Part shown: one piece after another, positions 1 to 29,054 of the stretch
Layout: the number at the start of each line of letters is the position of its first letter
Numbering within the stretch: position 1 is the stretch's first letter
Origin: an uncultured Candidatus Saccharibacteria bacterium
GTDB taxonomy: Bacteria > Patescibacteriota > Minisyncoccia > Portnoybacterales > GWB1-42-6
DNA length: 41,662 nt
Direction: 5' to 3'
Assembly (NCBI GenBank): GCA_964362775.1
Contig: CAYIFS010000001.1
Location: forward strand, 6,828-48,489
Notes under the pieces: generated by a model
The model's database searches: none
The model's input: the letters and a program-made list of their open reading frames with translations, nothing else
Told to the model about the DNA's origin: nothing
Program-made: the position numbers and the translations under genes

Positions 1-882
1 GTGGCTTATTATTTCAAGAAAAAAATAAAAAATATTCCTTCGGTCTGGGTAATGAACGATATGCCGACCAAAACCTGGTCTTTTCGACGGGATAGCCAGT
101 TTGATTCCAAGCTCAAGATATCTTTTATAAAAAGACTTTTTTATTGGTTAGTTGATAAATATGAAATCAAAAAATTTATAAAACCGCAGGATAAAATAAT
201 AGTTTTGGACAATCGCGACAGGGAATGGGTCAGGGAATATTTCAAAAAAGAAGCGATTGTTGTTAGAAGCGGCTTAGATTTAGAGAGGTTTAATTTTAAA
301 GAGCGGGAATCGTTAACAAATAAAAAGGTTGAAATACTAATGGCCGGAATTTTTTTTCGGCACCGGCGGTTTGAAGACGGAATTATGGCGATGAAAATCC
401 TTAAAGAAAAAAATTACGATGTTAATTTATCAATTGTCGGTGATTATAATATTAATAAAGATTATTTTAAAGAATTAGTCTATTTAGCCAAAAAATCAGG
501 AATGGAAGATTCAGTTGATTTTGCCGGTCGAGTCTCCGATGAAAAACTTTTAAATTTTTATCAACAAAGCGATATTTTTTTATTTCCCAATCATTGGCAA
601 TCATGGGGTTTGGTGGTTTTTGAAGCGATGGCTTGTGGTTTGCCGTCAATTGTTTCCAAGACCGCCGGAGCCAGCGAGGTTTTGACCGACGGCGAAAACG
701 CTTTATTGGTCGAGCCATTCAAGCCGGAAGATATAATTACGGCTGTCGCCAAACTTATAGATAACCCCGATTTATATGTTAAAATCAGCCGCCAGGGCAG
801 GGAACTCGTGGAAAAAAGCATTTCCTGGCCCCTTATGGCGCAAAAGGTATCGGCAATTTTCAAGGAAACGCTTAAAGATTAA
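1..882 (+). CDS. Glycosyltransferase, GT4-like GT-B family (5' end cut by the window edge)
   Basis: The ORF is open to the window start. The C-terminal GT-B half carries a GT4-type donor-binding stretch, FPNHWQSWGLVVFEAMACGLPSIVSKTAGASEVLTDGENALLV. Confidence 0.8.
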   Translation: MAYYFKKKIKNIPSVWVMNDMPTKTWSFRRDSQFDSKLKISFIKRLFYWLVDKYEIKKFIKPQDKIIVLDNRDREWVREYFKKEAIVVRSGLDLERFNFKERESLTNKKVEILMAGIFFRHRRFEDGIMAMKILKEKNYDVNLSIVGDYNINKDYFKELVYLAKKSGMEDSVDFAGRVSDEKLLNFYQQSDIFLFPNHWQSWGLVVFEAMACGLPSIVSKTAGASEVLTDGENALLVEPFKPEDIITAVAKLIDNPDLYVKISRQGRELVEKSISWPLMAQKVSAIFKETLKD

Positions 883-943
883 AAGGGCGAGAAAATTATG
901 ATAGTTTAAGATAAAAATCAGGTTTTAATTTAATTTCAAAAAT

Positions 944-2824
944 ATGTGCGGGATTGTTGGTTTCGCGGGTGAAGGAAAAAGAGAAACATTGGAAAAAATG
1001 AATTCCACCTTGGTCTATCGGGGACCGGACGAAGATGGTTATTTTTTTATTGAGGGAGAATTGGGATTTGGCTTCCGGCGCCTGGCCATTATTGATTTGG
1101 CTGGCGGTAATCAGCCGCTTTTTAATGAAGACCAATCAATAGTTTCAATGCTGAACGGCGAAATTTATAATTTCAAAGAGTTGCGCCAAGATTTGGCCAA
1201 AAGGCATAAGCTTGTCACTCAAGGCGACACGGAAGTCATTCCCCATCTTTATGAGGAAATCGGTGAAAAACTTTTTGAAAAATTGAACGGGATGTTCGCT
1301 ATCGCGATTTTTGACCGGAAAAACAAGAAATTGATTTTGGCGCGGGATCGATTCGGCAAAAAGCCGCTTTTTTACGCGATTTTAAATCAGACTTTGATTT
1401 TCGCTTCCGAGCCTAAGGCGATTTTGGAATATCCCGGGATTAAAAGGGAACTTAATCCGCAGGCCTTAAATTTATATCTAATTCATGAATACGTGCCTTG
1501 CCCTTGGTCGATTTTTAGAGGAATTAAAAAGATTGAGCCAGGCAGTTTTTTAGTTTTTCAAAACGGCCGGATTCAAAAGGATCGGCGTTATTATGAAATT
1601 GAATTTAATCGGCGGGATTTGGAAGTAAAATTTCAAGATCCGGTCAAAGAATTGGATCGACGCTTGGAAGAAGCGGTGCAAAAAAGATTAGTGGCGGATG
1701 TGCCGCTGGGCCTTTTTTTATCTGGCGGCCTTGATTCCAGCACGGTTTGTTATTTTGCCCAGCGTCTGCAAGATCAAAAAATAAAGACTTTTTCTGTCGG
1801 TTTCAAAGACCAATCGTTTGATGAATCAAAATACGCGCGGCAAGTCGCTGAGGTTTTAAAATCGGAACATCACGAGAAAATTCTGGAGGCCGAGGACCTT
1901 TATTCTTTGGCGCCCCAGATCTTTAAAATGTTGGATGAACCGTTGGCTGACGCCGCCATTATTCCGAATTTCTTGCTGGCGCGCTTCGCGCGCCAGTCCG
2001 TAACCGTAGCGCTGGGGGGCGACGGGGGAGATGAAATTTTTATGGGCTACCCCACTTTTCAAGCCCACCGGCTTTTTGATTTTTATCGGTTCGCGCCGGA
2101 TTTTTTAAAAAACAATTTAGTTGAACCGATTATCAATCATCTGCCCGCTTCTTTTGCCAATATTACTTTTGATTATAAGCTTAAGCGTTTTATTCTGGGC
2201 TTAAAATATGGGCCGGAGAGGCGCGATTCAATTTGGATCGGTTCTTTCACGCCGGAAGAGAAGCAAAAACTTTTGACGCCGGAAATTTTGAAAGAAACGG
2301 AAGGCTTTAATGACTTTTCCGTGGTTGACCGTTATATGGGTGAAGTAGCCCATCGGCCGTTTCTGGAAAAAATAGCCTATCTATATCAAAAAACTTATAT
2401 GACTGACGATATTTTGGCGCTTAAGGATCGGGCGAGCATGTTCGTTTCGCTGGAATTGCGCGCGCCCTTGCTTGATGTGAATGTGGTTGATTTCGTGAAT
2501 TCTCTGCCTCAAAATTTAAAACTCCGCGGCTTTAAAACCAAATATTTATTAAAAGAACTGATGCGGGGCCGTTTGCCGCAAAATATCATTGACCGTTCCA
2601 AAAAAGGATTTGGTATTCCGGTCGCTCGTTGGCTTCGAGGAGAATTAAAGAGTTTGATGCTTGAGGTTTTGGATTCCAAAAAGTTGGCCGGGGAAGGAAT
2701 TTTTCAGCCTAAAACCGTGGAACTTTTAATTTCCGAGCATCTTTCCGGCAAAAAAGACAATCGTAAGCTTTTGTGGACCTTAATGGCTTTTGAACTTTGG
2801 CGAAAAAATTGGCTGAAGAATTGA
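944..2824 (+). CDS. asnB: Asparagine synthetase B-family glutamine amidotransferase. In this context it is likely a sugar amidotransferase (WbpS/PseA-like role) rather than housekeeping AsnB.
   Basis: 626-aa ORF. It has N-terminal MCGIVGF (Cys2 Ntn-glutaminase nucleophile), FGFRRLAIID, and the synthetase-domain PP-loop FLSGGLDSS. It is embedded in the glycan cluster. Confidence 0.85.
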   Translation: MCGIVGFAGEGKRETLEKMNSTLVYRGPDEDGYFFIEGELGFGFRRLAIIDLAGGNQPLFNEDQSIVSMLNGEIYNFKELRQDLAKRHKLVTQGDTEVIPHLYEEIGEKLFEKLNGMFAIAIFDRKNKKLILARDRFGKKPLFYAILNQTLIFASEPKAILEYPGIKRELNPQALNLYLIHEYVPCPWSIFRGIKKIEPGSFLVFQNGRIQKDRRYYEIEFNRRDLEVKFQDPVKELDRRLEEAVQKRLVADVPLGLFLSGGLDSSTVCYFAQRLQDQKIKTFSVGFKDQSFDESKYARQVAEVLKSEHHEKILEAEDLYSLAPQIFKMLDEPLADAAIIPNFLLARFARQSVTVALGGDGGDEIFMGYPTFQAHRLFDFYRFAPDFLKNNLVEPIINHLPASFANITFDYKLKRFILGLKYGPERRDSIWIGSFTPEEKQKLLTPEILKETEGFNDFSVVDRYMGEVAHRPFLEKIAYLYQKTYMTDDILALKDRASMFVSLELRAPLLDVNVVDFVNSLPQNLKLRGFKTKYLLKELMRGRLPQNIIDRSKKGFGIPVARWLRGELKSLMLEVLDSKKLAGEGIFQPKTVELLISEHLSGKKDNRKLLWTLMAFELWRKNWLKN

Positions 2825-2872
2825 TTATTTAATATCAGATGGGATACAATCACAATAATCAGGAAAAATGTT

Positions 2873-4288
2873 ATGAATATTCTATTGTTTACGCCTTCCT
2901 ACAGCTTAATGAAAAAAGGATACGGCTCCAAAAGAAAATTGCGGGCCGGGCTTTTTCCGCCGCTCGGTTTGGCCTATTTGGCCAGTCCTCTGATCAAAGA
3001 CGGGCATGATGTCAGAATCATTGACGCTTCTTCTTATGAATATTCAGACGAACAGATTTGGGACATGGTCCAGCAATTTAAGCCGGATATTTTTGGCATT
3101 TCTTCCGTTACCTCTTCGGCCGACGAATCTTACGCTTTGGCTAATTTTTTGAAATCAAAACTTCCCAAGAAACCAATCATTTACGGCGGGCCTCATGCCA
3201 ATTGTTTTCCCGAATTGGTTTTTGAGAACATTAAAGATCTGGATATGTTGGTCTATGGCGAAGGGGAAGTCACTTTCAAAAAAATTGTTGATTTTTATAA
3301 AGAAAACGGTCGTTTGCCCGAAGATTTACCCGGCACCTGTTTGAAAACAAACGGCCAGATATTCAAAAATGTTCCGGCCAAGCCCGTCTTGAAATTGGAC
3401 GATATTTTGCCGCCCGCCTATCAATTATTTGATTACCAAGGAATTTATCGGCCCTTGCCCCTCCAATATAAAAAACTGCCCGTGGCCAATATGATTACTT
3501 CCCGAGGTTGCCCTTACGGCAAATGCACTTTTTGTTTTGAATCGGGCCGGGCTTCTCAAATTTATCGCCGGCAGAGTCCCGAACGGACCGTGGAAGAAAT
3601 TAAAATGTTGGTCAAGGATTTAAGTGTCAAGGAAATCGCTTTTTGGGATGATAATTTTTTGATCAGCGAAGATTGGATTTTTAAGTTTTGCGATCTGTTA
3701 GACAGTGAAGGCATTAAGATTCCTTGGAGTGCCAACGCTCGGGTGGATACCATCAGTGAAAAAATGTTGGAACGGGCGGCCAAATCCGGCCTCTGGAATA
3801 TTTTTTATGGTCTGGAAACCGGCAATCAGGATCTGCTGGATCGGATAAAAAAACGCATCACTTTGGAGAAAGGCCGCCAAGCTTTGGCCTGGACCAATAA
3901 ATACGGCATTGATAGCCGCGGATCTTTCATGTTGGCTTTGCCCGGCGAGACGCCGAAAAAAGGCCGGAATACCATAAAATTTGCCTGCGAGGTTGGTGTC
4001 ACTTACGCCCAGTTTTTGCCGACTCATCCGGAATGGGGCACCGAGCTTTATGATGACGCGATGGCTTCGGGTAGGCTCATTCCTCTCTATAAAGGAAGAA
4101 CTTCGGTAACTTTTATTCCCGAAGGCTATAAAGACGCTAGCGCCGTGAGAAAGATGCAACAGAAAGCTTACTGGATTTTTTATCTGCGACCCGGCTACAT
4201 TTGGAAACACATCAAGCGTTTGAGAAATTGGGAGAACTTAAAACAGTATTTTGACGCGGCCACTTATATTATTGGCATAACAACTTAA
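2873..4288 (+). CDS. B12-binding-domain radical SAM enzyme (class B radical SAM, possible C-/O-methylase)
   Basis: An N-terminal Rossmann-like cobalamin-binding-type region (DVRIIDAS...PDIFGISSVTSS...IIYGGPHA) is followed by the Fe-S cluster loop ITSRGCPYGKCTFC. Its spacing is Cx4Cx2C rather than the canonical Cx3Cx2C. Confidence 0.75.
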   Translation: MNILLFTPSYSLMKKGYGSKRKLRAGLFPPLGLAYLASPLIKDGHDVRIIDASSYEYSDEQIWDMVQQFKPDIFGISSVTSSADESYALANFLKSKLPKKPIIYGGPHANCFPELVFENIKDLDMLVYGEGEVTFKKIVDFYKENGRLPEDLPGTCLKTNGQIFKNVPAKPVLKLDDILPPAYQLFDYQGIYRPLPLQYKKLPVANMITSRGCPYGKCTFCFESGRASQIYRRQSPERTVEEIKMLVKDLSVKEIAFWDDNFLISEDWIFKFCDLLDSEGIKIPWSANARVDTISEKMLERAAKSGLWNIFYGLETGNQDLLDRIKKRITLEKGRQALAWTNKYGIDSRGSFMLALPGETPKKGRNTIKFACEVGVTYAQFLPTHPEWGTELYDDAMASGRLIPLYKGRTSVTFIPEGYKDASAVRKMQQKAYWIFYLRPGYIWKHIKRLRNWENLKQYFDAATYIIGITT

Positions 4289-4299: not shown

Positions 4300-4866
4300 A
4301 TGAAAAAAATTAATTTTGGCTGCGGCCAATATAAAAAAGAAGGGTTTATTAATATTGATATCAGCCCGGCGACCTATCCTGATATTTTGCACGACTTGGA
4401 AAAAATTCCTTATCCTTTTGAGGATGAAAGCATTGATCTGGTTGAAGCGGATCATGTTTTGGAGCATTTGAACAATCCTCTTTCGGTCATGAAAGAAATT
4501 TGGCGCATTCTAAAGCCCGGTGGCCGAGCGACCATTAAAGTGCCGCATTTTAGCCGGGGATTCAGCCACGCCGACCACAAGCGGGGATTTGATCTGGGTT
4601 TTCCTTATTATTTCAAGCCGGAATTTAAGGGTGGTTATACGGGCGCGCCTTTTGAATTGGAAAAACAACGGATTCGTTGGTTTTCTCAATTAGCCTTGAA
4701 AAAAGCGACTCTTCCGGCCGCGTTTTATTATCCGGCTTGGGTGGCGGGCAAAATATTCGATTTTTTGGCTAACCTCTCGCCTTTTTTCTGTTCGCGCGTT
4801 TGGTGTTTTTGGGTTGGCGGATTTGAAGAAATGGAATTCACTTTTGTCAAAAAATCACTGGAATAG
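4300..4866 (+). CDS. Class I SAM-dependent methyltransferase (Methyltransf_11-like)
   Basis: 188-aa ORF with INFGCGQYKKEGFINIDI (motif I-like), EADHVLEHL and ILKPGG. Confidence 0.7.
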   Translation: MKKINFGCGQYKKEGFINIDISPATYPDILHDLEKIPYPFEDESIDLVEADHVLEHLNNPLSVMKEIWRILKPGGRATIKVPHFSRGFSHADHKRGFDLGFPYYFKPEFKGGYTGAPFELEKQRIRWFSQLALKKATLPAAFYYPAWVAGKIFDFLANLSPFFCSRVWCFWVGGFEEMEFTFVKKSLE

Positions 4867-4883: not shown

Positions 4884-4918
4884 AAAAAAACGCCCCCGCA
4901 GCTGCGGGGGCGTTTTTT
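4884..4918. terminator. Bidirectional Rho-independent terminator between convergent genes
   Basis: aaaaaaa-CGCCCCCGCAG/CTGCGGGGGCG-tttttt is a perfect 22-nt GC-rich palindrome. It is flanked by an A-run and a T-run between the + gene ending at 4866 and the - gene ending at 4927. Confidence 0.85.
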
Positions 4919-4926: not shown

Positions 4927-6033
4927 TTATTTGTCCATCAAATATTTTTCAATAAATTCTTTTTCAAAAGCCGGCAGGCAAAAGGCGGTTTTGGAATAGA
5001 AAGGGTTTTTCAGCATTTTTTCAACAATTTGTTCCAGGCTCTCATTCTTTACGTTGCCGTAGATCACTTGGATTAAAGGACAAGAAACCACATCGCCGTA
5101 GGGCTGGACGCCGATTTTTTCCCGAGCCGCCGGGCAACGAACGGTTGTCAGGCTAGAATACATATCGGTTCGGACCGAGGAAAATTTCATCAGCCACCAA
5201 AAGTACTGTTTTTCTTTGTCGTTCATCAGAATCTCAATTCTGTTTTTCCAAGCGCCGGTGACGCAGGGAGGAGTGATTTGCAAATTGACCTTTTTGGTTT
5301 GGGCTAATTTAACTAGGGCTAGTAGGTCGTGATTTTTTATTTTTTCATGAGTGCTGATGGTGTTTAAAGTAACTCTTATTTTCAGGGGTCTGGCCCACTC
5401 AATTACTTGCATAATTTTTGTGTATCCGTTTTCTCGGCGATTATCATCGTGAATTTCGGGCAGAGCGCTATCCAATCCCATTTCCAACGAGCTTAAACCG
5501 GCTTCCGCCAGTTTTTTTAATGTTTCTTCGGTCATTAATAATCCGTTGCTGCACAGATGCACGTAGCATTTTTTTGATCGCAGATATTTTGTGATCTCTA
5601 AAACGTCGTTTAATTGCAAGAGTGGCTCGCCGCCTGTAAGGCAAAATTGGAAAGCGCCCATGGCCCGTGCCTGGTCAATAATATTTTTAAATTCCGCCAT
5701 TGTAAGGCGTTTTTTTGAGGGATCGTAAGCGAGGCGGCAGGAGCATTGATCGCATTTGGAATTGCAATTGTATTCCACCGCGATTTCCAGAGATCTTAAA
5801 CGCTGCTTGCCCATAAAAAATTTATCAAAATAATTCTTTAATATTTTGGGTATTAAATAAGGATTTTCGGCAATTATTTTCAGAGTCTGCCCGATTCGGT
5901 TAAAAGAGAATCTGAATTGGCAATATTTTCGATAGAAAGCGCTTTGAGTATATAGGGAAAAATTCTTTTCATATTTTTCTATTTCTCCCGGTTTGAAGAA
6001 ATCGGAAATTCGCTGAATTTTTTCAGTTTCCAT
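4927..6033 (-). CDS. Radical SAM protein with a Cys-rich (SPASM/twitch-like) C-terminal extension
   Basis: It has YNCNSKCDQCSC (CxxxCxxC), the GGEPLL SAM-binding motif, and extra C-terminal cysteines (PPCVTG, VRCPAA, VSCPL, FCLPA). About 85 aa of N-terminal extension precede the core. Confidence 0.75.
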   Translation of the reverse strand: METEKIQRISDFFKPGEIEKYEKNFSLYTQSAFYRKYCQFRFSFNRIGQTLKIIAENPYLIPKILKNYFDKFFMGKQRLRSLEIAVEYNCNSKCDQCSCRLAYDPSKKRLTMAEFKNIIDQARAMGAFQFCLTGGEPLLQLNDVLEITKYLRSKKCYVHLCSNGLLMTEETLKKLAEAGLSSLEMGLDSALPEIHDDNRRENGYTKIMQVIEWARPLKIRVTLNTISTHEKIKNHDLLALVKLAQTKKVNLQITPPCVTGAWKNRIEILMNDKEKQYFWWLMKFSSVRTDMYSSLTTVRCPAAREKIGVQPYGDVVSCPLIQVIYGNVKNESLEQIVEKMLKNPFYSKTAFCLPAFEKEFIEKYLMDK

Positions 6034-19719: not shown

Positions 19720-19734
19720 AATTTCTTCCCGCTA

Positions 19735-22903: not shown

Positions 22904-24076
22904 ATGAAAGGAAAATTTTTAGTGACCAATTTCGCTTACGGCACGGGGCCCTATTTGCGGACCACGGATTTGGCCATCGCTTTTAACAATGAGCTGGAAA
23001 AGGTTGGCTCAAGAGGGCGCTTGGGAATAATCGTTCCTTGGGTCTATGGCGAAAAACAAAAAAGGGTGATGCGGGAAGAATTTTCCGGCCATTTGAAAAA
23101 ATATCCCGACGAGATTCTTTTGGACGCTCAATTGGGTTCTTTTTTAAAAACTATTTTTTACGGCGATAATAATTATCAGGATGCGTTAAGCCAATGGATA
23201 AATTCGTTTGAGGGTATTTCTCTGAAAACTCGCGATTATTTGTCCGGAAATTTGGATCTGGAGACTTTTTCGGGAAAGAAGAAAAAAATTGCCGGCAAAA
23301 ATATTGTCGTTGAATTAAATCGCTCTCCTCGCGTCTCTTATAAAATCGCGCCTTCCTATCTTACTTCCTTCGGCTATATCGAAGAGATATTGAAAAAATC
23401 GGCCGGGGTCGCCGAAATTGACGTGAAAAAAAATCTTTTGAGGCGGGGCGCGGAAACCGCTAAAAAAGCCGAGGCGGGTCATCAAATCCATTGCATCGCT
23501 TATCCGGGCACATTTTCTTTCAATAAAAATTATCAGCCTCGTTATAAAACCGAGATTTTAGTGCCGCCCATCGCCCCGCCGCCTTTGCCCAATAAAAAGA
23601 AGATCAAGAAAGGGATTTTCGTGACCATCACCGGTATCCCGGGCCTTGAAAGGCTATATCGTCAAGCCAAGGAGCTTGGTTTAAAACTTTACAGCAACGA
23701 CACAGAGGCTGTGCCGGGCAGTATTCGGGCTTTGCCCTGGATCATTCCCAATAAGAACATCGTTTTTCAATTCGCGCGATCGGGCTGGAGCTCGGTTTGG
23801 ATCTCAATGATCAGCGGCACGCCGCTCGTGGTTCCCGATTTTGATTCCAAAGACGACCCGGAAATTTATTTTAACAATCAGGCGATTGAAAAATTGGGCA
23901 TTGGCATAATTTATCGGGGCCAGCCGTTGAAGGAAATTTTAAAGCAAGCGGAAAAAATCAGAAAAAACAGCCAAATTTTAAAAAATAAAATTTTGAAACG
24001 TTGGGGGACTTTGGATGGCAACAAATATTGCGCCAAATTATTCACCGAACATTTTTTGAAAAATTTTTCCAAATGA
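22904..24076 (+). CDS. Hypothetical GT-B protein with a MurG/PseG (GT28)-like C-terminal half
   Basis: FQFARSGWSSVWISMISGTPLVVPDF....EIYFNNQAIEKLGIG resembles the GT28 C-terminal donor-binding block. The N-terminal half was not recognised. Confidence 0.4.
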   Translation: MKGKFLVTNFAYGTGPYLRTTDLAIAFNNELEKVGSRGRLGIIVPWVYGEKQKRVMREEFSGHLKKYPDEILLDAQLGSFLKTIFYGDNNYQDALSQWINSFEGISLKTRDYLSGNLDLETFSGKKKKIAGKNIVVELNRSPRVSYKIAPSYLTSFGYIEEILKKSAGVAEIDVKKNLLRRGAETAKKAEAGHQIHCIAYPGTFSFNKNYQPRYKTEILVPPIAPPPLPNKKKIKKGIFVTITGIPGLERLYRQAKELGLKLYSNDTEAVPGSIRALPWIIPNKNIVFQFARSGWSSVWISMISGTPLVVPDFDSKDDPEIYFNNQAIEKLGIGIIYRGQPLKEILKQAEKIRKNSQILKNKILKRWGTLDGNKYCAKLFTEHFLKNFSK

Positions 24077-24130
24077 TTTAAGATTGATACAACGCGTTAG
24101 ATCAGCGGACTGGATTATTAATTGTTCAAT

Positions 24131-25105
24131 ATGGCTAAAATAATCGTGGAAATTTGCCAAAATCACAATGGCGACAGGGCTCTTCTAAAAGAGATGATTT
24201 GGGCCGCCAAAGAAAACGGCGCCGATATAGTGAAGGGCCAAATCATTTTTTCCGAGGATTTGACGAAAAGAGAGCGCTTTGAGGAAGGTTTTATGGAACC
24301 AAACGGCGTCAGAAAAACCATTAAGAGGCCCTATCAAGACGAATTTGAAAGGCTAAAAAAACTTGATTTAACCGAAGATGATTATATTTTTTTTACGGAA
24401 GAATGCCGACGCGCGGATATCATTCCGATGCTGACGGTTTTTTCCCGGAATCGGGTTTCGTTGGCCTCTCCAGTGCCCTATATCGGGAAAAAATGGGTGA
24501 AAGTAGCGAGTTACGATTGCGGCAGTCTCTCGTTGATTAAAGAACTGGCTGTTAATTTTGATAATTTGATTATTTCCACCGGCGCGAGCTTTGACGAAGA
24601 AATCCAAAAAACCGCGGAAATTTTGAAAAATAAAAACAAGGAATTTGTTTTTTTGCACTGTGTGACCAGCTATCCCAATTCTTTGGAAATGGCCAATTTG
24701 GCTCGGCTTGAATGGTTGAGAAAATTGACGCCGCAAGTCGGTTGGTCCGACCACACGCTCGTTTCGCGCGACGGCCTCAAGGCCTCAAAGGTGGCTTTAG
24801 CGCTGGGCGCGGATTATATTGAGCGGCATTTTACGGTGCTTCCTTCGGATAAAACCAAAGACGGTCCGGTTTCCATCAGCCCGGTTTTGCTTAAAGAATT
24901 GGCCGATTTCGCTAAATTGTCCAAAAAAGAGCAAAGATTGAGAGTGGAAAAAGAAATTCCCGAATGGAGAATTTTGATCGGTTTTCCCCAAAGAGAAATG
25001 ACCCAAATTGAAATGCTGAATCGGGATTATTATCGGGGCCGTTTCGCCAGTTTTAAAAACAACGAATGGATCTTTAATTGGGAGGACAAAGATTTAAACA
25101 TTTAA
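24131..25105 (+). CDS. NeuB-family sugar-PEP condensing synthase, copy 2 (short form)
   Basis: It has AKIIVEICQNHNGDRALLKEMIWAAKENGADIVKGQ, VKVASYDCGS, LHCVTSYP, GWSDHT and ADYIERHFT. ATG 24131 is preferred over TTG 24122. Confidence 0.75.
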   Translation: MAKIIVEICQNHNGDRALLKEMIWAAKENGADIVKGQIIFSEDLTKRERFEEGFMEPNGVRKTIKRPYQDEFERLKKLDLTEDDYIFFTEECRRADIIPMLTVFSRNRVSLASPVPYIGKKWVKVASYDCGSLSLIKELAVNFDNLIISTGASFDEEIQKTAEILKNKNKEFVFLHCVTSYPNSLEMANLARLEWLRKLTPQVGWSDHTLVSRDGLKASKVALALGADYIERHFTVLPSDKTKDGPVSISPVLLKELADFAKLSKKEQRLRVEKEIPEWRILIGFPQREMTQIEMLNRDYYRGRFASFKNNEWIFNWEDKDLNI

Positions 25106-25845: not shown

Positions 25846-27654
25846 ATGAATGTTTTAGGATTAAAAATTAAAAAGCACGACACGGGCGCCGCATTGATAT
25901 CCGATGGCGAGGTCGTGGCGATCGCCGAAGAGCGCCTTTGTCGGATTAAACACTCTTTTGATATTTTTCCAAGGCTCGGTATTGATTATTGCTTGGATAC
26001 CCTGAAAGTCAAGCCGGAAGAAATAGATCTTGTGGTGATAGATCAGGTTGATTTGCGGGAAAAAATTCCGATGAAAGAAATTTTTCTCCAAGAAACCAGA
26101 AACAGATTCAGCCGTGCTTCAATTGAAGTGATCAATCATCATGACGCCCACGCCGCTTCGGCTTTTTTCTGTTCGCCGTTTGAAGAAGCGGCGATTTTGG
26201 TCTACGACGGCTCGGGAGAAAAATTCAAATCGCATTTGGGAACGGCGGCGACCGAAACGGAAACTCTTTATCGGGGCAAGGGAAATAAATTTTTTCAACT
26301 TCAAAAAACAGCTCATTTAAGGGAAGCCAAGGCCTTCCCTTACACTTTTGGCATCGGCAAGCTTTATTCTTTTATCTCCAGTCTTTATCTTAATTTTGGC
26401 GCTTATAATGAAGGTAAAATGATGGGATTGGCGCCTTACGGCAACAATTCCATTCTTAAACAATTTCCTTTTGAAGATTGGTTTGCCGAAAAAGAAGGTC
26501 ATTTGATCTGTAATGCCCGGATAACCTTTCCCGGATCTTCTAAATTGGAAAAGCTGGGCAAGATAAAAAGCATCGGCGAATTTATTAAGATCGCGCGCCA
26601 TTATTTTAAAATCAAAGCCAGGGTTGCGGCTGGTCGGCTTTTTTGGAAACTATATAGATTTTCTCATTTTAAAGAATTATTCTTTGAGCCGTTGATCTTT
26701 CAAAAAGTTTTTCTGCCGCGGCCTCCTCGCGTTCAAGCCGACAAGCTGCCCGACGATTATTATTCCTCCGTGGCTTTTGCCATTCAAAAGGTAATGGAAG
26801 AAATCGCGGTCCGATGGGCTTTAAAAATCAAAAACATGACCGGCGCTCAAAATCTTTGCGTGGCGGGGGGATTGGGTTTGAATATTGACACCAATAAAAA
26901 GTTTTTAGATGAAGCGAGATACGAAGATATTTTTATTCAGCCGGCTTCGTCCGACACCGGCGTGGCGTTGGGTTGCGCGCTTTACGGGTGGCATATGATT
27001 TTAAATCAGCCTCGGTTTTGGCAAATGAAGAACGCCGAATTAGGCAAAAAATATAACGAAGAAGATATTCAACAGGCGCTGGAAGAAAGAAAAGAAGAGA
27101 TTATTGTGAAAAAATCTTCCGCGATCGCTTCCGAAGCCGCCCAGCTGATCGCTCAAGGAAAAATTATCGGCTGGTTTCAGGGAGGAGCCGAATACGGTCC
27201 GCGGGCTTTGGGTCATCGTTCTATCCTTTGTAACGCCGGGGTGAAAGAGATGAAGGATATTTTGAATAATCGAGTAAAACATCGTGAGCCCTGGCGGCCC
27301 TTTGCCGCTTCGGTTTTAAAAGAAGAGGTGGCTCAATGGTTTGAATTGGAGAAAGAGAGTCCTTTTATGCTTTTGGTTGCTTCGGTCAAAAAAGAGAAAC
27401 GGGAGCTTATTCCTTCTGTCGTGCATGTGGACGGCACTTGCCGGATCCAGTCGGTTGATAAAGAAAATAACCGGCCTTATTATGATTTAATCTCCGCTTT
27501 TTATAAATTGACCAAGATGCCGATGGTTTTAAACACTTCTTTTAATCTGGGGGGCGAACCTATTGTGGAAACGCCGCAAGACGCTTTGTCGTGTTTTCTA
27601 AGGACTGAGATGGATTATTTGGTGATAGAAGATTATCTGGTGACAAAAAAATAA
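25846..27654 (+). CDS. NodU/CmcH-family carbamoyltransferase
   Basis: The N-terminus is MNVLGLKIKKHDTGAALISDGEVVAIAEERLCRIKH. The C-terminal part has GPRALGHRSIL, VHVDGTCRIQSV and NTSFNLGGEPIVETPQDAL. Confidence 0.85.
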   Translation: MNVLGLKIKKHDTGAALISDGEVVAIAEERLCRIKHSFDIFPRLGIDYCLDTLKVKPEEIDLVVIDQVDLREKIPMKEIFLQETRNRFSRASIEVINHHDAHAASAFFCSPFEEAAILVYDGSGEKFKSHLGTAATETETLYRGKGNKFFQLQKTAHLREAKAFPYTFGIGKLYSFISSLYLNFGAYNEGKMMGLAPYGNNSILKQFPFEDWFAEKEGHLICNARITFPGSSKLEKLGKIKSIGEFIKIARHYFKIKARVAAGRLFWKLYRFSHFKELFFEPLIFQKVFLPRPPRVQADKLPDDYYSSVAFAIQKVMEEIAVRWALKIKNMTGAQNLCVAGGLGLNIDTNKKFLDEARYEDIFIQPASSDTGVALGCALYGWHMILNQPRFWQMKNAELGKKYNEEDIQQALEERKEEIIVKKSSAIASEAAQLIAQGKIIGWFQGGAEYGPRALGHRSILCNAGVKEMKDILNNRVKHREPWRPFAASVLKEEVAQWFELEKESPFMLLVASVKKEKRELIPSVVHVDGTCRIQSVDKENNRPYYDLISAFYKLTKMPMVLNTSFNLGGEPIVETPQDALSCFLRTEMDYLVIEDYLVTKK

Positions 27655-27656
27655 TG

Positions 27657-27687
27657 AAAATAGCCCCGCCGAAGCGGGGCTATTTTT
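27657..27687. terminator. Bidirectional Rho-independent terminator between convergent genes
   Basis: aaaa-TAGCCCCGC-cgaa-GCGGGGCTA-ttttt. Confidence 0.8.
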
Positions 27688-27707
27688 GTAATAAAGAGAG
27701 GAATGAA

Positions 27708-29054
27708 TTATATTCCTCCGCCGCTTAAAATGGTTTTGATGGTTTTTAGGATGATCGCAAGTTCCAGAATCAATGAGCGATTTTTGATATAATAAAGGTC
27801 AAATTGGAGTTTTTGGAGGGTATCTTCGATTGATGAGCCGTAGGGATATTTTATTTGCGCCCAGCCGGTCAGGCCGGGTTTAATAGTGTGGCGGATTTGG
27901 TAGAAGGGGATCTTTGCTAAAAGCTCATTGGAAAAAGCGAACTCGGGCCGTTCTGGCCTGGGTCCGACAAAAGACATATCGCCGCGCAAAACATTCCAAA
28001 GTTGGGGCAATTCATCAAGGCGAGTTTTGCGCAAAAATTTGCCCACGTGGGTAACGCGCTCGTCATTTTTTTGGGCCCATTGGGCGCCTTCTTTTTCGGC
28101 GTCGCGAACCATCGTCCGAAATTTTATCACTTCAAAAATCCGATTATCTTGGCCGACCCTTTTCTGGCGATAAAAAATCGGACCGGGCTTGTCTATTTTT
28201 ATCAAAAAAGCGACAAGTGGCAGAATCACTAAAGTAAAAAACCCCAGAATTAAAGCGGCCAGAATATCAATAATCCTTTTTAGCATTTCAAAAAAAACTT
28301 TTCGGCCGGTCATCAAGTTTTCCAAAAACCAGACTTCTTCAATCGCCGAAACCGGGATTTTGCCGGTGATTTTTTCATAGAAGCTCGGCAGATCGGCCAG
28401 CATCACTTTTAAGGGGATACATTGATAAAGATTGCGGACAAGTTCCGCGTCTTTCCTGGGATCAACGCTCGTCACCACCACCTGGATCTTTTCCTGAACT
28501 ATAGTATCTATCAAATCATAAAGGATTTTTACTTCCGCGGGATCAACGATTTTTTTGATGCGGTAGCCCAATTGCGGATTATCTTTAATATATTTTATTA
28601 ATTCCTGGCTTTCTCGGCTTTGGCCGATAACCAGGACATTGTTTAAAAGAGCGGATGTTTTCACAAAATGATTATAGAACTGGCGCCAGAAGATAAAAAA
28701 GAGCGCGAAGAGCCCGAGGTCGATGAAAAGATTGGTTTTGGGAGTGATGTTAAAATAAGAAAAGAAATAGAAAAAAGCGATGGCCAAGAAAGCGTTGATT
28801 ACCAAGGCTTTGGCCAGGGTCACGAAGAAATAGATATTGTTGCGCGCGACACTTAGATCGTAGAGGCCGATGATGTAAAAAACGAGCAGCCAGAGAAAAT
28901 AGATGACGGAAAAAGCGGAGAAATGGTCCCCCCAAAAATTTTCCCAATTATCCCCATATCTTAAAAACAGCGTCAAAAAAAGCGCCAGATATAAGATTAG
29001 GATATCGCCGGCCACCAGCATGAAAGTTTTTATTTTATTGACTAGGGCGCTCAT
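27708..29054 (-). CDS. Polyprenyl-phosphate sugar-phosphotransferase (bacterial sugar transferase, WbaP/EpsB-type initiating enzyme)
   Basis: N-terminal TM helices and a Rossmann-like linker precede KRIIDILAALILG, PIFYRQKRVGQDNRIFEVIKFRTM and DELPQLWNVLRGDMSFVGPRP. Confidence 0.85.
   Translation of the reverse strand: MSALVNKIKTFMLVAGDILILYLALFLTLFLRYGDNWENFWGDHFSAFSVIYFLWLLVFYIIGLYDLSVARNNIYFFVTLAKALVINAFLAIAFFYFFSYFNITPKTNLFIDLGLFALFFIFWRQFYNHFVKTSALLNNVLVIGQSRESQELIKYIKDNPQLGYRIKKIVDPAEVKILYDLIDTIVQEKIQVVVTSVDPRKDAELVRNLYQCIPLKVMLADLPSFYEKITGKIPVSAIEEVWFLENLMTGRKVFFEMLKRIIDILAALILGFFTLVILPLVAFLIKIDKPGPIFYRQKRVGQDNRIFEVIKFRTMVRDAEKEGAQWAQKNDERVTHVGKFLRKTRLDELPQLWNVLRGDMSFVGPRPERPEFAFSNELLAKIPFYQIRHTIKPGLTGWAQIKYPYGSSIEDTLQKLQFDLYYIKNRSLILELAIILKTIKTILSGGGI

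What the first reader, a model, noticed from the sequence alone, without database searches (positions are those of the whole stretch)
1..29054. A ~29-kb island dedicated to a heavily decorated (non)ulosonic-acid surface glycopolymer
24 of 25 consecutive CDS are glycan-assembly genes.
- Assembly: an initiating sugar-phosphotransferase, a Wzx-like flippase, GT4, GtrB-like GT2, a MurG/PseG-like GT-B and four TagF-like paralogs.
- Precursor supply: 2 NeuB-family synthases, 2 CMP-sugar synthetases, a HAD phosphatase, an oxidoreductase and a CBS-fused NDP-sugar dehydrogenase.
- Tailoring: an AsnB amidotransferase, four SAM methyltransferases, two radical SAM enzymes and a carbamoyltransferase.

This tailoring set predicts methyl, amido/amidino and carbamoyl decorations on a CMP-activated keto-sugar polymer. 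I could not recognise a Wzy polymerase, Wzz, an ABC exporter, a ligase or a GT-C partner for the GtrB-like enzyme in the window.

Promoter/terminator pairs split the island into modules at about 14313, 16070, 18080 and 19735. For a probably reduced, CPR-like genome this is a very large investment. I know of no characterised locus with this gene combination.
Basis: partly seen in the sequence, partly recalled or inferred. Interest (0 to 1): 0.7.

Follow-up and report, generated by a model that had tools for sequence, protein, structure and literature searches.

The report
Acidic keto-sugar surface-glycan locus in CPR
An ultra-small groundwater bacterium devotes at least 29 kb to building a heavily decorated acidic surface sugar chain, using two sialic-acid-like pathways that nobody has characterised, although similar loci turn out to be common in its relatives.

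Summary
Window 1-29054 carries 25 consecutive genes, and 24 of them fall in glycan-assembly families; the exception is a GIY-YIG nuclease. The locus runs off the left edge of the window.

- Both NeuB-family and both CMP-transferase genes are real, but they score far below the Neu/Pse/Leg equivalog cut-offs.
- No NeuC, PseBCH or LegBCH genes are present.
- One synthase is a NeuB-cupin fusion. It sits in a conserved module with a phosphatase, an oxidoreductase, a CMP-transferase and a TagF-like gene. Relatives of the fusion were confirmed in 535 stretches of species-representative genomes. I found no published characterisation.
- The second pathway is CBS-dehydrogenase, a GT28-like GT-B, a short NeuB and a CMP-transferase. 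It is conserved in Parcubacteria.
- The four "TagF-like" paralogs match the Tannerella nonulosonic-acid transferase model better than the TarL/TarF teichoic-acid models, so they are probably CMP-ulosonate transferases.

This is not a compositional island. It is a hypervariable glycan locus at a conserved position next to MurB/SecA. The closest characterised analogue is the Tannerella forsythia protein O-glycosylation cluster. Relatives carry a Wzy_C-TPR gene at the locus edge; this window has none. The sugar identities, and whether the product is a polymer or an oligosaccharide, remain unproven.

The parts
1..882 (+). GT4 glycosyltransferase; the 5' end is cut by the window edge and the full length is 395 aa on contig L087
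   Evidence: PF00534 at 134 bits; L087
944..2824 (+). AsnB-type glutamine amidotransferase; probably amidates a sugar carboxylate
   Evidence: TIGR01536 at 462 bits, above the 267 cut-off; an asnB sits in the T. forsythia glycan cluster
2873..4288 (+). B12-binding radical SAM enzyme (candidate C-methyltransferase)
   Evidence: PF02310 + PF04055; best NCBIfam hits are HpnJ and BchE, all below cut-off
4300..4866 (+). Short class-I SAM methyltransferase (MT_a); complete, with an FGCG motif at the N-terminus
4890..4918 (.). GC-rich palindromic hairpin flanked by A and T runs, between convergent genes; acts as a bidirectional terminator
   Evidence: sequence read
4927..6033 (-). Radical SAM/SPASM enzyme; tailoring role unknown
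   Evidence: PF04055, PF13186
6046..6987 (-). ArnC/GtrB-like GT2 with two C-terminal TM helices (polyprenyl-phosphate sugar synthase type); its GT-C partner is absent from the window
   Evidence: PF00535; NF007986 at 168 bits, below cut-off; TM helices; relatives pair it with a PMT_2 GT-C
6998..7342 (-). GIY-YIG nuclease-domain protein; the one gene that is not glycan-related
   Evidence: PF01541
7419..8759 (+). TagF-like GT-B paralog 1; candidate CMP-ulosonate transferase
   Evidence: PF04464 at 54 bits; NF046086 BFO_1060 at 59 bits, below the 200 cut-off
8756..10147 (+). TagF-like paralog 2. The ORF opens at 8687, but the conserved MKT start is at 8756 and overlaps the upstream stop codon
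10144..11562 (+). TagF-like paralog 3; its start overlaps the stop of paralog 2
11580..12251 (+). SAM methyltransferase (MT_b)
12258..13649 (+). Wzx-like polytopic flippase (weak family match)
   Evidence: PF01943 at 21.5 bits, below the 28.2 cut-off; nine hydrophobic peaks; homologues at 24-51% identity (6 of 10 at 37% or more) in related loci
13652..14290 (+). SAM methyltransferase (MT_c)
14472..15287 (+). SAM methyltransferase (MT_d); often next to Wzx in relatives
15341..16021 (+). HAD phosphatase of ulosonate module 1
   Evidence: PF00702/PF13419; found near NeuB-cupin in 59 of 80 loci; natural fusion HAD+NeuB+cupin, P0034
16125..16841 (+). CMP-ulosonate synthetase 1 (CTP_transf_3)
   Evidence: PF02348; PseF model at 148 bits, below the 205.7 cut-off; found in 67 of 80 loci; fusion P0003
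16846..17913 (+). Rossmann oxidoreductase, weakly GFO/IDH/MocA-like, of module 1
   Evidence: PF22725 at 27.1 bits against a cut-off of 27; found in 65 of 80 loci; fusion P0097
17914..18072 (+). Highly structured intergenic region with four hairpins; the last one (18040-18063) plus a U-run is a terminator
   Evidence: MFE -63 kcal/mol, z = -5.55; no Rfam match
18138..19676 (+). NeuB-family PEP-condensing synthase fused to a metal-binding cupin (candidate sugar isomerase); the core of module 1
   Evidence: PF03102 at 127 bits + PF07883; PDB 3g8r at 4e-83; more than 4,000 homologues; 535 confirmed stretches in species-representative genomes
19689..19721 (+). Intrinsic terminator with a 14-bp stem
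19807..21174 (+). TagF-like paralog 4; orthologues (33-45% identical) lie next to NeuB-cupin in relatives
   Evidence: AF2 model pLDDT 94.3 with a GT-B fold; family profile hits TarL in its C-terminal domain
21178..22902 (+). CBS-fused NDP-sugar 6-dehydrogenase; the best-matching named model is UDP-ManNAc dehydrogenase
   Evidence: TIGR03026 at 346 bits, above the 190 cut-off; NF040825 at 236 bits, below the 750 cut-off
22904..24076 (+). GT-B protein (GT28/GT1-like) of a small family whose named members are all CPR. It is either a uronic-acid transferase or a PseG-like UDP-sugar hydrolase
   Evidence: No Pfam hit at 1e-3; AF2 model and Foldseek; 259 cluster representatives; fusion with CBS-dehydrogenase, P0384, and Glyco_tran_28_C hits in distant members
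24122..25105 (+). Short NeuB-family synthase 2 with no detectable SAF domain; 27% identical to the NeuB-cupin protein
   Evidence: PF03102 at 151 bits; TIGR03569 at 137 bits, below the 400 cut-off; orthologues at 60-70% identity in L090, L094 and L095
25121..25840 (+). CMP-ulosonate synthetase 2; 50% identical to synthetase 1
25846..27654 (+). NodU/CmcH-type O-carbamoyltransferase
   Evidence: PF16861 at 240 bits, PF02543
27657..27686 (.). 13-bp-stem hairpin between convergent genes, with T runs on both sides; acts as a bidirectional terminator
27708..29054 (-). WbaP/WcaJ-type polyprenyl-phosphate glycosyl-1-phosphate transferase (the initiating enzyme) with N-terminal TM helices
   Evidence: PF02397 at 234 bits; TIGR03025 at 382 bits, above the 295 cut-off

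Best explanation
This is the right-hand 29 kb of a hypervariable, Wzx-dependent surface-glycan locus in a Parcubacteria-type CPR bacterium. The chain it assembles on a polyprenyl carrier is acidic and contains two different CMP-activated 3-deoxy-2-ulosonic acids.

Shown at family level:
- A WbaP/WcaJ-type phosphotransferase can start a chain on polyprenyl phosphate.
- GT4, GT-B and GT2 enzymes, a Wzx-like flippase, two NeuB-family PEP-condensing synthases and two CTP_transf_3 cytidylyltransferases are all encoded.
- So are four SAM methyltransferases, two radical SAM enzymes, an AsnB amidotransferase and a carbamoyltransferase.

Inferred, module 1 (15341-19676, possibly with 19807-21174):
- The HAD phosphatase, the cupin (a likely aldose-ketose isomerase) and the oxidoreductase convert a central-metabolism sugar phosphate into a free aldose.
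- The NeuB domain condenses that aldose with PEP.
- Synthetase 1 activates the product as a CMP-sugar.
- Because no amino- or acetyl-transferase is present, the product is most likely a non-aminated, Kdn-like ulosonic acid.

Inferred, module 2 (21178-27654):
- The CBS-dehydrogenase makes a UDP-(N-acetyl)hexuronic acid.
- The translationally coupled GT28-like GT-B most likely transfers it into the chain, and AsnB amidates it. This parallels ManNAcA and ManNAcCONH2 in Tannerella.
- The short NeuB and synthetase 2 supply a second CMP-ulosonate, and the carbamoyltransferase decorates it.

Inferred, assembly and export:
- The four TagF-like GT-B paralogs are only 26-29% identical to one another. 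I read them as CMP-ulosonate transferases with different acceptor or linkage specificities, not as CDP-alditol phosphotransferases.
- The finished lipid-linked unit is flipped by Wzx and handed to a protein or to the wall by an enzyme not encoded in this window. In many relatives a Wzy_C+TPR protein sits at the locus edge.
For: Catalytic motifs in the NeuB domains:
- The K-x-Q motif and the two histidine motifs are conserved in both NeuB domains in the printed alignments to 3g8r and PseI 8h2c. That these residues are the metal and PEP ligands is taken from the literature, not tested here.
- The cupin keeps its H-x-H...E...H metal motif across 15 homologues.

Module 1 behaves as one pathway:
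- Natural fusions exist: CTP_transf_3+NeuB+cupin (P0003), HAD+NeuB+cupin (P0034) and NeuB+GFO+cupin (P0097).
- Within 10 kb of NeuB-cupin in 80 genomes, the CMP-transferase is found in 67, the oxidoreductase in 65, the HAD in 59 and a TagF-like gene in 36. Among the 44 loci of at least 15 kb, the TagF-like count is 28.
- In two relatives (L090, L092) a His_Phos_1 phosphatase plus an APH-family kinase lies next to the ulosonate genes where other loci have the HAD. In L092 they follow NeuB-cupin and the oxidoreductase directly. A phosphatase step therefore seems to be a constant.

Module 2 is conserved:
- The GT28-like protein (55-59% identical), short NeuB (60-70%), CMP-transferase (50-66%) and, in L090 and L095, the CBS-dehydrogenase (56%) recur in L090, L094 and L095. 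L088 has the first three at lower identity plus the dehydrogenase.
- P0384 is a natural fusion of the GT28-like domain with the CBS-dehydrogenase.

TagF-like genes as ulosonate transferases:
- 47 of 48 family members hit the BFO_1060 model, with a best E-value of 6e-21. Only 10 hit TarL.
- BFO_1060 is the orthologue of the T. forsythia Pse/Leg-derivative transferase, a TagB-like GT-B (PMC5420450).
- The window has no TagD, TarI or TarJ type gene, but it has two CMP-ulosonate synthetases.
- TagF4 orthologues abut NeuB-cupin in L019, L038 and L064.

Export and final transfer:
- Wzx and the phosphotransferase are membrane proteins.
- A Wzy_C+TPR protein lies at the locus edge in 10 of 25 CPR loci and in 0 of 19 loci from other phyla.

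Conserved position: L032, L050 and L078 have the arrangement locus - Wzy_C-TPR - (MurB) - SecA.
Against: - No enzyme was assayed. Every substrate assignment is inferred.
- Both NeuB proteins and both CMP-transferases score well below the curated equivalog cut-offs.
- The TagF-like proteins are below the BFO_1060 cut-off (35-59 bits against 200). They do not conserve the HP and D/E-D/E-G motifs described for the Tannerella enzymes.
- Foldseek on the TagF4 model returns generic GT-B folds (MshA, UDP-GlcNAc 2-epimerases; TarL at rank 41) and does not discriminate between readings.
- The Wzx match is sub-threshold.
- The window has no polymerase, ligase or oligosaccharyltransferase. The slot where relatives have Wzy_C-TPR holds an unrelated secreted HExxH protein.
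- Nothing in the window obviously supplies the aldose for the short NeuB, unless the GT28-like protein is a hydrolase.
- The oxidoreductase has only borderline family support and no PDB relative.
Confidence: 0.6

Rival explanations
1. Teichulosonic-acid-like wall polymer. The TagF-like paralogs divide labour like TagB and TagF (a primase plus processive polymerases). They build a long poly-ulosonate chain on a lipid-linked primer, and the chain is then attached to peptidoglycan. This would resemble the Kdn teichulosonic acid of Streptomyces.
For: - There are four TagF-like paralogs, three of them tandem and translationally coupled.
- The family profile's only significant PDB sequence hit is the polymerase TarL.
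- CPR cells are thought to be monoderm-like (general knowledge, not tested here).
- S. coelicolor has a dedicated, phosphate-free teichulosonic acid cluster, SCO4873-4882 (PMC13011467).
Against: - The window has a Wzx-like flippase and no ABC exporter or LCP ligase.
- The single-copy TagF-like gene typical of most related loci fits a transferase better than a polymerase system.
- Relatives carry a Wzy_C-TPR gene, not TagGH.
- The many different glycosyltransferases and tailoring enzymes suggest a complex heteroglycan.
Confidence: 0.2
2. The GT28-like protein is a PseG-type UDP-sugar hydrolase, not a transferase. Module 2 would then be a linear pathway: UDP-HexNAc, 6-oxidation by the dehydrogenase, hydrolysis, condensation with PEP by the short NeuB, then CMP activation. 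The product would be a C-9-carboxylated nonulosonic ('nonulosaric') acid that AsnB could amidate.
For: - The GT28-like gene lies directly beside a short NeuB in the window, L090 and L094. In L095 two small ORFs intervene, and in L088/L089 an Epimerase_2 gene separates it from a longer NeuB+SAF. A CTP_transf_3 gene is adjacent or within about 7 kb in all of them.
- This mirrors PseG-PseI-PseF.
- The fusion with the CBS-dehydrogenase (P0384) fits consecutive metabolic steps.
- In L088/L089 the order CTP_transf_3 - dehydrogenase - GT28-like - Epimerase_2 - NeuB makes a complete five-step route.
- The window has no other source of a free aldose for the short NeuB.
- PF04101, the family that contains PseG (general knowledge), is hit by distant members of the GT28-like family.
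Against: - The best fold matches are GT1 transferases.
- T. forsythia offers a direct precedent for WecC plus a GT1-type transferase plus AsnB giving ManNAcA and ManNAcCONH2 residues in the chain.
- The N-terminal glycine loop reads GTGPY. It has no histidine where PseG and MurG have G-x-G-H (the motif is recalled from the literature and no structural superposition was done).
- To my knowledge no natural C-9-carboxy nonulosonic acid is known.
Confidence: 0.25
3. The TagF-like proteins are genuine CDP-alditol phosphotransferases that make a teichoic-acid-type poly(alditol phosphate). The ulosonic acids are only minor substituents or belong to a separate glycan.
For: - All four paralogs pass the PF04464 gathering score (33-54 bits against 22.1).
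- TarL, TarF and TarB models appear among the weak NCBIfam hits.
Against: - No CDP-glycerol or CDP-ribitol synthesis genes lie in the 29 kb.
- The TagF-like gene is genomically tied to the NeuB-cupin and CMP-transferase module: 21 of 25 CPR loci, and also loci in other phyla.
- BFO_1060 is the best NCBIfam model for 47 of 48 members.
Confidence: 0.1
4. The 29 kb is a mosaic of two or more independent glycan systems that merely sit side by side. For example, the minus-strand ArnC-like GT2 and radical SAM block could serve a separate lipid-linked monosaccharide decoration pathway.
For: - Eight transcription units are separated by promoter-like sites and terminators.
- The segment 4927-7342 is on the opposite strand and includes a GIY-YIG gene.
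- Relatives pair the ArnC-like GT2 with a PMT_2 GT-C.
- Gene content varies widely between relatives.
Against: - There is only one initiating phosphotransferase and one flippase in the window.
- The same families co-occur repeatedly in relatives. L067 shares 11 of them.
Confidence: 0.3

Closest known systems
Tannerella forsythia 27-kb general protein O-glycosylation cluster (wzx, pseBCFHGI, gtfSMILE, mtfJOY, asnB, wecC, wecB; PMC6120980, PMC5420450)
   Same: The parts list is the same in kind: a Wzx flippase, a CMP-nonulosonate pathway, a roughly 445-aa TagB-like GT-B that transfers the NulO, further GT-B and GT2 transferases, several SAM methyltransferases, an AsnB amidotransferase and a UDP-ManNAc-dehydrogenase-type enzyme. 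The size is similar (27 kb against at least 29 kb). The NCBIfam model built on its NulO transferase (BFO_1060) is the best named match for the four TagF-like paralogs.
   Different: - The window has no pseB/C/H or wecB.
- Its two NeuB proteins are not PseI or LegI equivalogs.
- It has four TagB-like paralogs where Tannerella has one, and all score below the family cut-off without the HP and D/E-D/E-G motifs.
- It adds two radical SAM enzymes, a carbamoyltransferase and an initiating phosphotransferase.
- The host is a probably monoderm-like CPR bacterium rather than a diderm Bacteroidota.
- Gene order is unrelated.
Canonical Neu/Pse/Leg/Kdn (nab) clusters
   Same: NeuB-family PEP condensation followed by CMP activation by a CTP_transf_3 enzyme. 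The use of a phosphatase in module 1 recalls the Neu5Ac-9-P and Kdn-9-P routes (general knowledge).
   Different: - No NeuC, PseBCHG or LegBCHG genes are present.
- Scores are 115-148 bits against cut-offs of 205-400.
- The NeuB-cupin fusion with a GFO-like oxidoreductase has no characterised counterpart in the literature I could search.
Wall teichoic acid TagB/TagF/TarL glycerol- and ribitol-phosphate transferases
   Same: GT-B fold. The Pfam PF04464 match passes its threshold. The C-terminal cytidine-nucleotide-binding region aligns to TarL 8va1.
   Different: - No CDP-alditol supply genes and no ABC exporter are present.
- An invariant Trp-Asp (W178-D179) lies in the N-terminal domain. I suspect this is where TagF and TarL have their catalytic histidine motif, but I could not verify that.
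- The genes are genomically tied to CMP-ulosonate synthesis.
Streptomyces coelicolor teichulosonic acid (Kdn polymer) cluster SCO4873-SCO4882 (PMC13011467, citing Ostash et al. 2014)
   Same: A surface or wall glycopolymer based on an ulosonic acid in a monoderm envelope.
   Different: I could not retrieve the SCO proteins for comparison with these tools. No homology or synteny was tested.
PDB 3G8R, 'probable spore coat polysaccharide biosynthesis protein E' (a structural-genomics entry)
   Same: It matches residues 12-323 of the NeuB-cupin protein at E = 4e-83. It is the same NeuB sub-clade.
   Different: It is 350 aa with no cupin domain. The name given by its depositors is only 'probable', and I found no published function for it.

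Membership tests
NeuB / sialic-acid-synthase superfamily (PF03102) | NeuB TIM-barrel domain above the Pfam gathering score | tested here: met
   18138-19676 scores 126.7 bits and 24122-25105 scores 150.9 bits, against a cut-off of 22.1
NeuB / sialic-acid-synthase superfamily (PF03102) | Conserved K-x-Q motif and two metal-binding histidine motifs (roles taken from the NeuB literature) | tested here: met
   In the printed alignments, KFQ / STHE / ERH line up with 3g8r, and KGQ / SDH / ERH line up with PseI 8h2c. K50, Q52, H208 and H231 are invariant in 15 homologues
Neu5Ac synthase or pseudaminic acid synthase equivalogs (TIGR03569, TIGR03586) | Whole-protein score above the curated equivalog cut-off | tested here: not met
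   115.6 and 112.8 bits (NeuB-cupin); 137.2 and 115.9 bits (short NeuB); cut-offs are 399.65 and 340.25
Canonical Neu/Pse/Leg biosynthesis cluster | Presence of upstream enzymes: NeuC 2-epimerase, or a PseB/LegB dehydratase plus a PseC/LegC aminotransferase plus an N-acetyltransferase | tested here: not met
   Pfam scans of all 25 proteins found no Epimerase_2, Polysacc_synt_2, DegT or acetyltransferase domain inside 1-29054
CMP-ulosonate synthetase (CTP_transf_3; PseF/NeuA/KdsB type) | PF02348 domain above threshold; equivalog assignment | tested here: inconclusive
   PF02348 scores 86 and 85 bits, above the 22.6 cut-off (met). The PseF equivalog model scores 148 and 147 bits, below the 205.7 cut-off (not met)
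TagF/TarL CDP-alditol phosphotransferases (PF04464) | Pfam Glyphos_transf domain above the gathering score | tested here: met
   54.2, 32.7, 51.3 and 33.8 bits against 22.1. Only the C-terminal two-thirds of the profile is matched
TagF/TarL CDP-alditol phosphotransferases (PF04464) | Locus supplies a CDP-glycerol or CDP-ribitol donor (TagD, TarI/TarJ) and an ABC exporter | tested here: not met
   No such domains occur among the 35 window proteins
TagF/TarL CDP-alditol phosphotransferases (PF04464) | Catalytic histidine of the N-terminal domain (TagF H444 from the literature; the PDB entry 8va1 is a TarL H300N mutant) | not testable with these tools
   The invariant residues in the corresponding region are W178-D179. 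No reference sequence or coordinate superposition was available to confirm that these positions are equivalent
BFO_1060 family NulO glycosyltransferase (NF046086; T. forsythia GtfS) | Score above the curated cut-off of 200 bits | tested here: not met
   34.6-58.7 bits for the four paralogs. It is nonetheless the best model for 47 of 48 family members
BFO_1060 family NulO glycosyltransferase (NF046086; T. forsythia GtfS) | Conserved sialyltransferase-like motifs D/E-D/E-G and HP (PMC5420450) | tested here: not met
   HP occurs at non-equivalent positions in the four paralogs. D/E-D/E-G occurs only in paralog 3
BFO_1060 family NulO glycosyltransferase (NF046086; T. forsythia GtfS) | Encoded beside CMP-NulO synthesis genes | tested here: met
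   Shown by the window gene order. A TagF-like gene lies within 10 kb of NeuB-cupin in 21 of 25 CPR loci and 7 of 19 loci from other phyla
GT28 / MurG-PseG-type GT-B (PF04101) | Glyco_tran_28_C domain above the gathering score; GT-B fold | tested here: inconclusive
   The window protein scores 13.7 bits, below the 22 cut-off. The distant family member P0479 scores 27.1 bits. The AF2 model is a GT-B, best matching GT1 enzymes with TM about 0.55-0.6
Wzx/Wzy-dependent glycan assembly | Initiating polyprenyl-phosphate phosphoglycosyltransferase | tested here: met
   TIGR03025 at 382 bits, above the 295.55 cut-off
Wzx/Wzy-dependent glycan assembly | MOP-family flippase | tested here: inconclusive
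   PF01943 at 21.5 bits, below the 28.2 cut-off. The protein is polytopic. Homologues in related loci are called Polysacc_synt
Wzx/Wzy-dependent glycan assembly | Wzy polymerase, ligase or oligosaccharyltransferase | tested here: not met
   None lies in the window. tblastn with four Wzy_C-TPR proteins from relatives finds nothing
Horizontally acquired genomic island | Compositional break, flanking tRNA or integrase, and absence from the same site in relatives | tested here: not met
   GC is 0.37-0.46 with no step at 29054. There is no tRNA and no integrase. Relatives have a glycan locus at the same MurB/SecA-adjacent position

The most novel reading that the evidence does not exclude
The window encodes two undescribed ulosonic-acid pathways and a new class of transferases for them.
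1. The NeuB-cupin / oxidoreductase / phosphatase / CMP-transferase module has relatives confirmed in 535 stretches of species-representative genomes from CPR and several other phyla, and no characterised member. It would make a new, non-aminated ulosonic acid directly from a central-metabolism sugar phosphate.
2. The route WecC-like dehydrogenase, PseG-like hydrolase, short NeuB, CMP-transferase would yield a C-9-carboxylated ('nonulosaric') sialic-acid analogue, which AsnB then amidates.
3. Both sugars would be installed by an Asp-type branch of TagF-like GT-B enzymes acting as CMP-ulosonate glycosyltransferases on CPR surface proteins or pili.
Probability: 0.2. Interest if true: 0.8.

Novelty: new variant of a known kind. 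Interest (0 to 1): 0.55.

Why it matters
Almost nothing is known experimentally about the cell-surface chemistry of CPR/Patescibacteria. Their episymbiotic lifestyle nonetheless depends on surface contact, and a recent type IV pilus study calls their glycosylation processes unexplored (PMC11623550).

This locus and its many relatives show four things:
- Parcubacteria-type genomes of roughly 1 Mb keep a large, fast-evolving locus for an acidic, sialic-acid-like glycan at a fixed chromosomal site.
- There is a compact, portable five-gene module (NeuB-cupin, phosphatase, oxidoreductase, CMP-transferase, TagF-like GT-B). It spans many phyla and is ready for biochemical characterisation.
- There is a second conserved module containing a GT-B family that no Pfam or NCBIfam model matched at E up to 0.001.
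- A Wzy_C-TPR protein is the likely final transferase in CPR.

If the TagF-like family does use CMP-ulosonates, then many proteins annotated as 'CDP-glycerol glycerophosphotransferase' are mis-assigned.

Tried and rejected
- Recovering the region upstream of window position 1. Exact-protein look-ups returned only short contigs (L087 at 3.3 kb; L001 and L002 at 7.5-8.8 kb). A 48.5-kb record listed for the identical GT28-like protein P0121 was not shown. The left border and any Wzy, ligase or GT-C gene there remain unseen.
- Discriminating TagF-type from sialyltransferase-type by Foldseek on the TagF4 model. It returned only generic GT-B hits.
- Looking for the Tannerella HP and D/E-D/E-G motifs in the four paralogs. 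They are not conserved.
- Testing whether the 605-aa protein at 29137-30954 replaces the Wzy_C-TPR gene. It is a soluble secreted HExxH protein, it has no TM helices, and it shows no similarity.
- Rfam scan of the whole window. No hits.
- Repeat search for island borders or mobile-element ends. Nothing relevant to the glycan locus turned up.
- PDB sequence searches for the oxidoreductase and the HAD. There were no informative relatives.
- Literature searches for NulO or sialic acid in CPR/Patescibacteria and for NeuB-cupin enzymes. Nothing relevant was found.
- Considered and rejected: MT_a as a truncated pseudogene. It has the N-terminal GCG motif and full-length homologues.
- Considered and rejected: an alternative genetic code. 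All ORFs are intact under table 11.

Full report
**What is in the window.**
- The ORF list and the Pfam and NCBIfam scans give 35 genes. The first 25 (1-29054) are the finding.
- On the plus strand come a GT4 cut by the window edge, AsnB (TIGR01536 at 462 bits, above the 267 cut-off), a B12-binding radical SAM enzyme and a short methyltransferase.
- On the minus strand come a radical SAM/SPASM enzyme, an ArnC/GtrB-like GT2 with two C-terminal TM helices, and a GIY-YIG protein.
- Back on the plus strand come three tandem TagF-like genes, a methyltransferase, a Wzx-like polytopic protein, two methyltransferases, a HAD hydrolase, a CTP_transf_3 cytidylyltransferase and a weakly GFO/IDH/MocA-like oxidoreductase. 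After these come a NeuB+cupin fusion and a fourth TagF-like gene.
- The run ends with a CBS-fused NDP-sugar dehydrogenase, a 390-aa protein with no family hit, a short NeuB, a second cytidylyltransferase and a carbamoyltransferase.
- A WbaP/WcaJ-type phosphotransferase lies convergent on the minus strand.
- Downstream are housekeeping genes: a secreted HExxH protein, MurB, HPF, an arginine decarboxylase / deoxyhypusine-synthase-like / agmatinase block, a GNAT, a PaaX_M/Cas2-like protein and SecA.

**Transcription units.**
- Promoter-like sites with 10 of 12 matches lie at 14313, 16070, 18080 and 19735, each in an intergenic gap.
- Hairpin + U-run terminators precede three of them: 16042-16068, 18040-18063 and 19689-19721. 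None precedes 14313.
- Further hairpins mark the two convergent junctions at 4890-4918 and 27657-27686.
- A divergent promoter pair sits at about 7370-7420.
- The TagF-like genes 1-3 overlap stop-to-start.

**Source organism.**
- Identical proteins occur on contigs from Hainich groundwater well H43 assemblies named for 0.1 and 0.2 um fractions.
- The closest homologues of several proteins come from Uhr-, Sung-, Taylor-, Magasanik- and Paceibacteria-type MAGs. The CPR attribution therefore holds.
- The best relative among 185,579 species-representative genomes is only 62% identical for the most conserved protein. All 80 loci kept are MAGs.
- No near-identical or cultured counterpart exists in that collection.

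**Not an island in the usual sense.**
- GC content shows no step at 29054. There is no tRNA and no integrase.
- In L032, L050 and L078 a mosaic version of the locus lies directly upstream of (MurB)-SecA, as it does here.
- The locus also continues beyond window position 1.
- It behaves like an O-antigen or capsule locus: fixed site, hypervariable content.

**Module 1.**
- The NeuB domain of the fusion matches PDB 3G8R at 4e-83. It keeps the K-x-Q and histidine motifs.
- It reaches only 113-116 bits on the NeuB and PseI equivalog models, whose cut-offs are 340-400.
- The cupin keeps a His/His/Glu/His metal site. Its weak named matches are sugar isomerases (lyxose/mannose, ribose and Man-6-P isomerases) and quercetin dioxygenase.
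- More than 4,000 homologues at 55-65% identity exist. In the species-representative genome collection 535 stretches encode a confirmed relative. The 80 best loci come from CPR and from Thermodesulfobacteriota, Gammaproteobacteria, Bacteroidota, Gemmatimonadota, Verrucomicrobiota, Planctomycetota and Actinomycetota MAGs, by record title.
- Natural fusions join NeuB-cupin to CTP_transf_3 (P0003), to HAD (P0034) and to the GFO-like oxidoreductase (P0097).
- Within 10 kb of the fusion gene in 80 genomes, the cytidylyltransferase occurs in 67, the oxidoreductase in 65, the HAD in 59 and a TagF-like gene in 36. Among loci of at least 15 kb the counts are 40, 39, 30 and 28 of 44.
- In two relatives (L090, L092) a histidine phosphatase and an APH-family kinase lie next to the ulosonate genes.
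- I conclude that these genes form one pathway that passes through a phosphorylated sugar.
- No amino- or acetyl-transferase lies anywhere in the 29 kb. My best guess is a non-aminated, Kdn-like ulosonic acid made from a central-metabolism ketose phosphate.
- The exact sugar is not determined. I found no paper describing this enzyme architecture.

**Module 2.**
- The 390-aa protein has 410 homologues at 55-80% identity. All the named ones are from CPR and none has a Pfam domain.
- An exhaustive profile search finds only 259 cluster representatives among 1.84 billion.
- Its AF2 model (pLDDT 94.4) is a GT-B fold that best matches GT1 enzymes.
- Distant family members pass Pfam Glyco_tran_28_C. 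The window protein is sub-threshold at 13.7 bits.
- One family member, P0384, is a natural fusion with the CBS-dehydrogenase. In the window the two genes are one base apart.
- The protein lies directly beside a short, SAF-less NeuB (60-70% identical to the window's) in L090 and L094. In L095 two small ORFs intervene. A cytidylyltransferase lies adjacent or within about 7 kb, usually with the CBS-dehydrogenase.
- In L088/L089 the order is CTP_transf_3 - dehydrogenase - GT28-like - Epimerase_2 - NeuB.
- Two readings fit. In the first, the dehydrogenase makes a UDP-uronic acid, the GT-B transfers it and AsnB amidates it, as for ManNAcA and ManNAcCONH2 in T. forsythia. In the second, the GT-B is a PseG-like hydrolase that feeds a free uronic acid to the short NeuB.

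**The 'TagF-like' genes.**
- All four pass PF04464, but only over the C-terminal part of the profile. They are 26-29% identical to one another.
- The best NCBIfam model for 47 of 48 family members is BFO_1060, with a best E-value of 6e-21. TarL is hit by only 10.
- BFO_1060 is the orthologue of the genetically validated T. forsythia Pse/Leg-derivative transferase, a TagB-like GT-B (PMC5420450).
- The family profile's only significant PDB sequence hit is the C-terminal nucleotide-binding region of TarL. Foldseek on a pLDDT 94.3 model is non-discriminating.
- The scores are below the BFO_1060 cut-off, and the HP and D/E-D/E-G motifs are not conserved. These proteins are therefore not members of that family as it is defined.
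- Invariant residues are W178-D179, H390, R427 and D439.
- The window has no CDP-alditol supply genes but two CMP-ulosonate synthetases. TagF-like genes also track the NeuB-cupin module across phyla. The most likely donors are therefore CMP-ulosonates.
- Four divergent paralogs imply either several ulosonate linkages in one unit or a primase/polymerase split.

**Export and final acceptor.**
- The window provides an initiating phosphotransferase and a Wzx-like flippase, but no polymerase, ligase, oligosaccharyltransferase, ABC exporter or GT-C.
- In 10 of 25 CPR loci, and in 0 of 19 loci from other phyla, a roughly 750-aa Wzy_C+TPR protein sits at the locus edge.
- In L067, the most similar locus with 11 shared families, it directly follows the divergent phosphotransferase gene. 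In L003 and L005 it is followed by PilB and PilC.
- Wzy_C is the domain found in O-antigen ligases and in PglL/PilO-type O-oligosaccharyltransferases (general knowledge). Transfer to pilins, S-layer proteins or other surface proteins is therefore a reasonable guess.
- In this window that slot holds an unrelated secreted HExxH protein with a Pro/Ala/Thr/Ser-rich linker. The missing enzyme must be encoded elsewhere, or the mechanism differs here.
- In relatives the ArnC-like GT2 is paired with a PMT_2-type GT-C. That partner is also absent from the window.

**Comparison and verdict.**
- The closest characterised system is the T. forsythia 27-kb protein O-glycosylation cluster. It is similar in its kinds of parts but not in sequence-level membership or gene order.
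- The locus is a new variant of a known kind, namely an ulosonic-acid-containing, Wzx-dependent surface-glycan locus.
- The new points are two uncharacterised precursor modules, one of them widespread well beyond CPR; a small GT-B family with no Pfam or NCBIfam match at E up to 0.001; and a TagF-like branch that probably uses CMP-sugars.
- All functional statements beyond family assignment are inference.

Noticed in passing
window 38131-38162 and 38771-38804: Two copies (91% identical) of a 32-nt palindrome, GCCATATATCTGCnATnGCAGnTATATGGCAT, flank the PaaX_M/Cas2-like gene (38191-38745) on both sides. They could be operator sites or paired hairpins.
   Followed up: no
window 17914-18072: The 224-nt gap between the oxidoreductase and NeuB-cupin holds four consecutive GC-rich hairpins. 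MFE is -63 kcal/mol against -42.5 for shuffles, z = -5.55. The last hairpin is a terminator; the other three are unexplained. There is no Rfam match.
   Followed up: partly
window 29137-30954: A secreted 605-aa protein with a signal peptide, an HEFQH zinc-protease-like motif and a Pro/Ala/Thr/Ser-rich linker (about aa 455-495), followed by a C-terminal segment that looks internally repetitive by eye. It occupies the slot where relatives have the Wzy_C-TPR gene, and it is a plausible O-glycosylation substrate.
   Followed up: partly
window 32418-35827: A polyamine block: a PLP-dependent Orn/Arg decarboxylase, a deoxyhypusine-synthase-family protein and an agmatinase/arginase-family protein in a row. 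A DHS-like enzyme in a bacterium suggests homospermidine-type or agmatine-derived polyamine synthesis.
   Followed up: no
L003 17079-21578; L005 17220-22352: In two CPR relatives the glycan locus is followed by the Wzy_C-TPR gene and then the type IV pilus genes PilB and PilC. This hints that the glycan may go onto pilins.
   Followed up: partly
L003 200-3756 and 13286-14218: One relative carries a fused protein with pyruvate-kinase, PUA, ATP-sulfurylase and APS-kinase domains, an inositol-phosphatase-family protein and a sulfotransferase around the NeuB-cupin module. Sulfation therefore belongs to the variable tailoring repertoire of these loci.
   Followed up: no
L090 3721-5498; L092 12646-14360: In some loci a His_Phos_1 phosphatase plus an APH-family kinase lies next to the ulosonate genes, where other loci have the HAD phosphatase. 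In L092 the pair directly follows NeuB-cupin and the oxidoreductase. This supports a phosphorylated intermediate.
   Followed up: partly
window 16540-16570 and 25548-25578: A 31-nt stretch is 94% identical between the two cytidylyltransferase genes, although the proteins are only 50% identical overall. It encodes the conserved PKxPYKMWK peptide. Local gene conversion or strong constraint could explain it.
   Followed up: no
window 6998-7342: A stand-alone 114-aa GIY-YIG nuclease-domain gene heads the only minus-strand block inside the locus (4927-7342). It might mark a past rearrangement or a mobile insertion.
   Followed up: no
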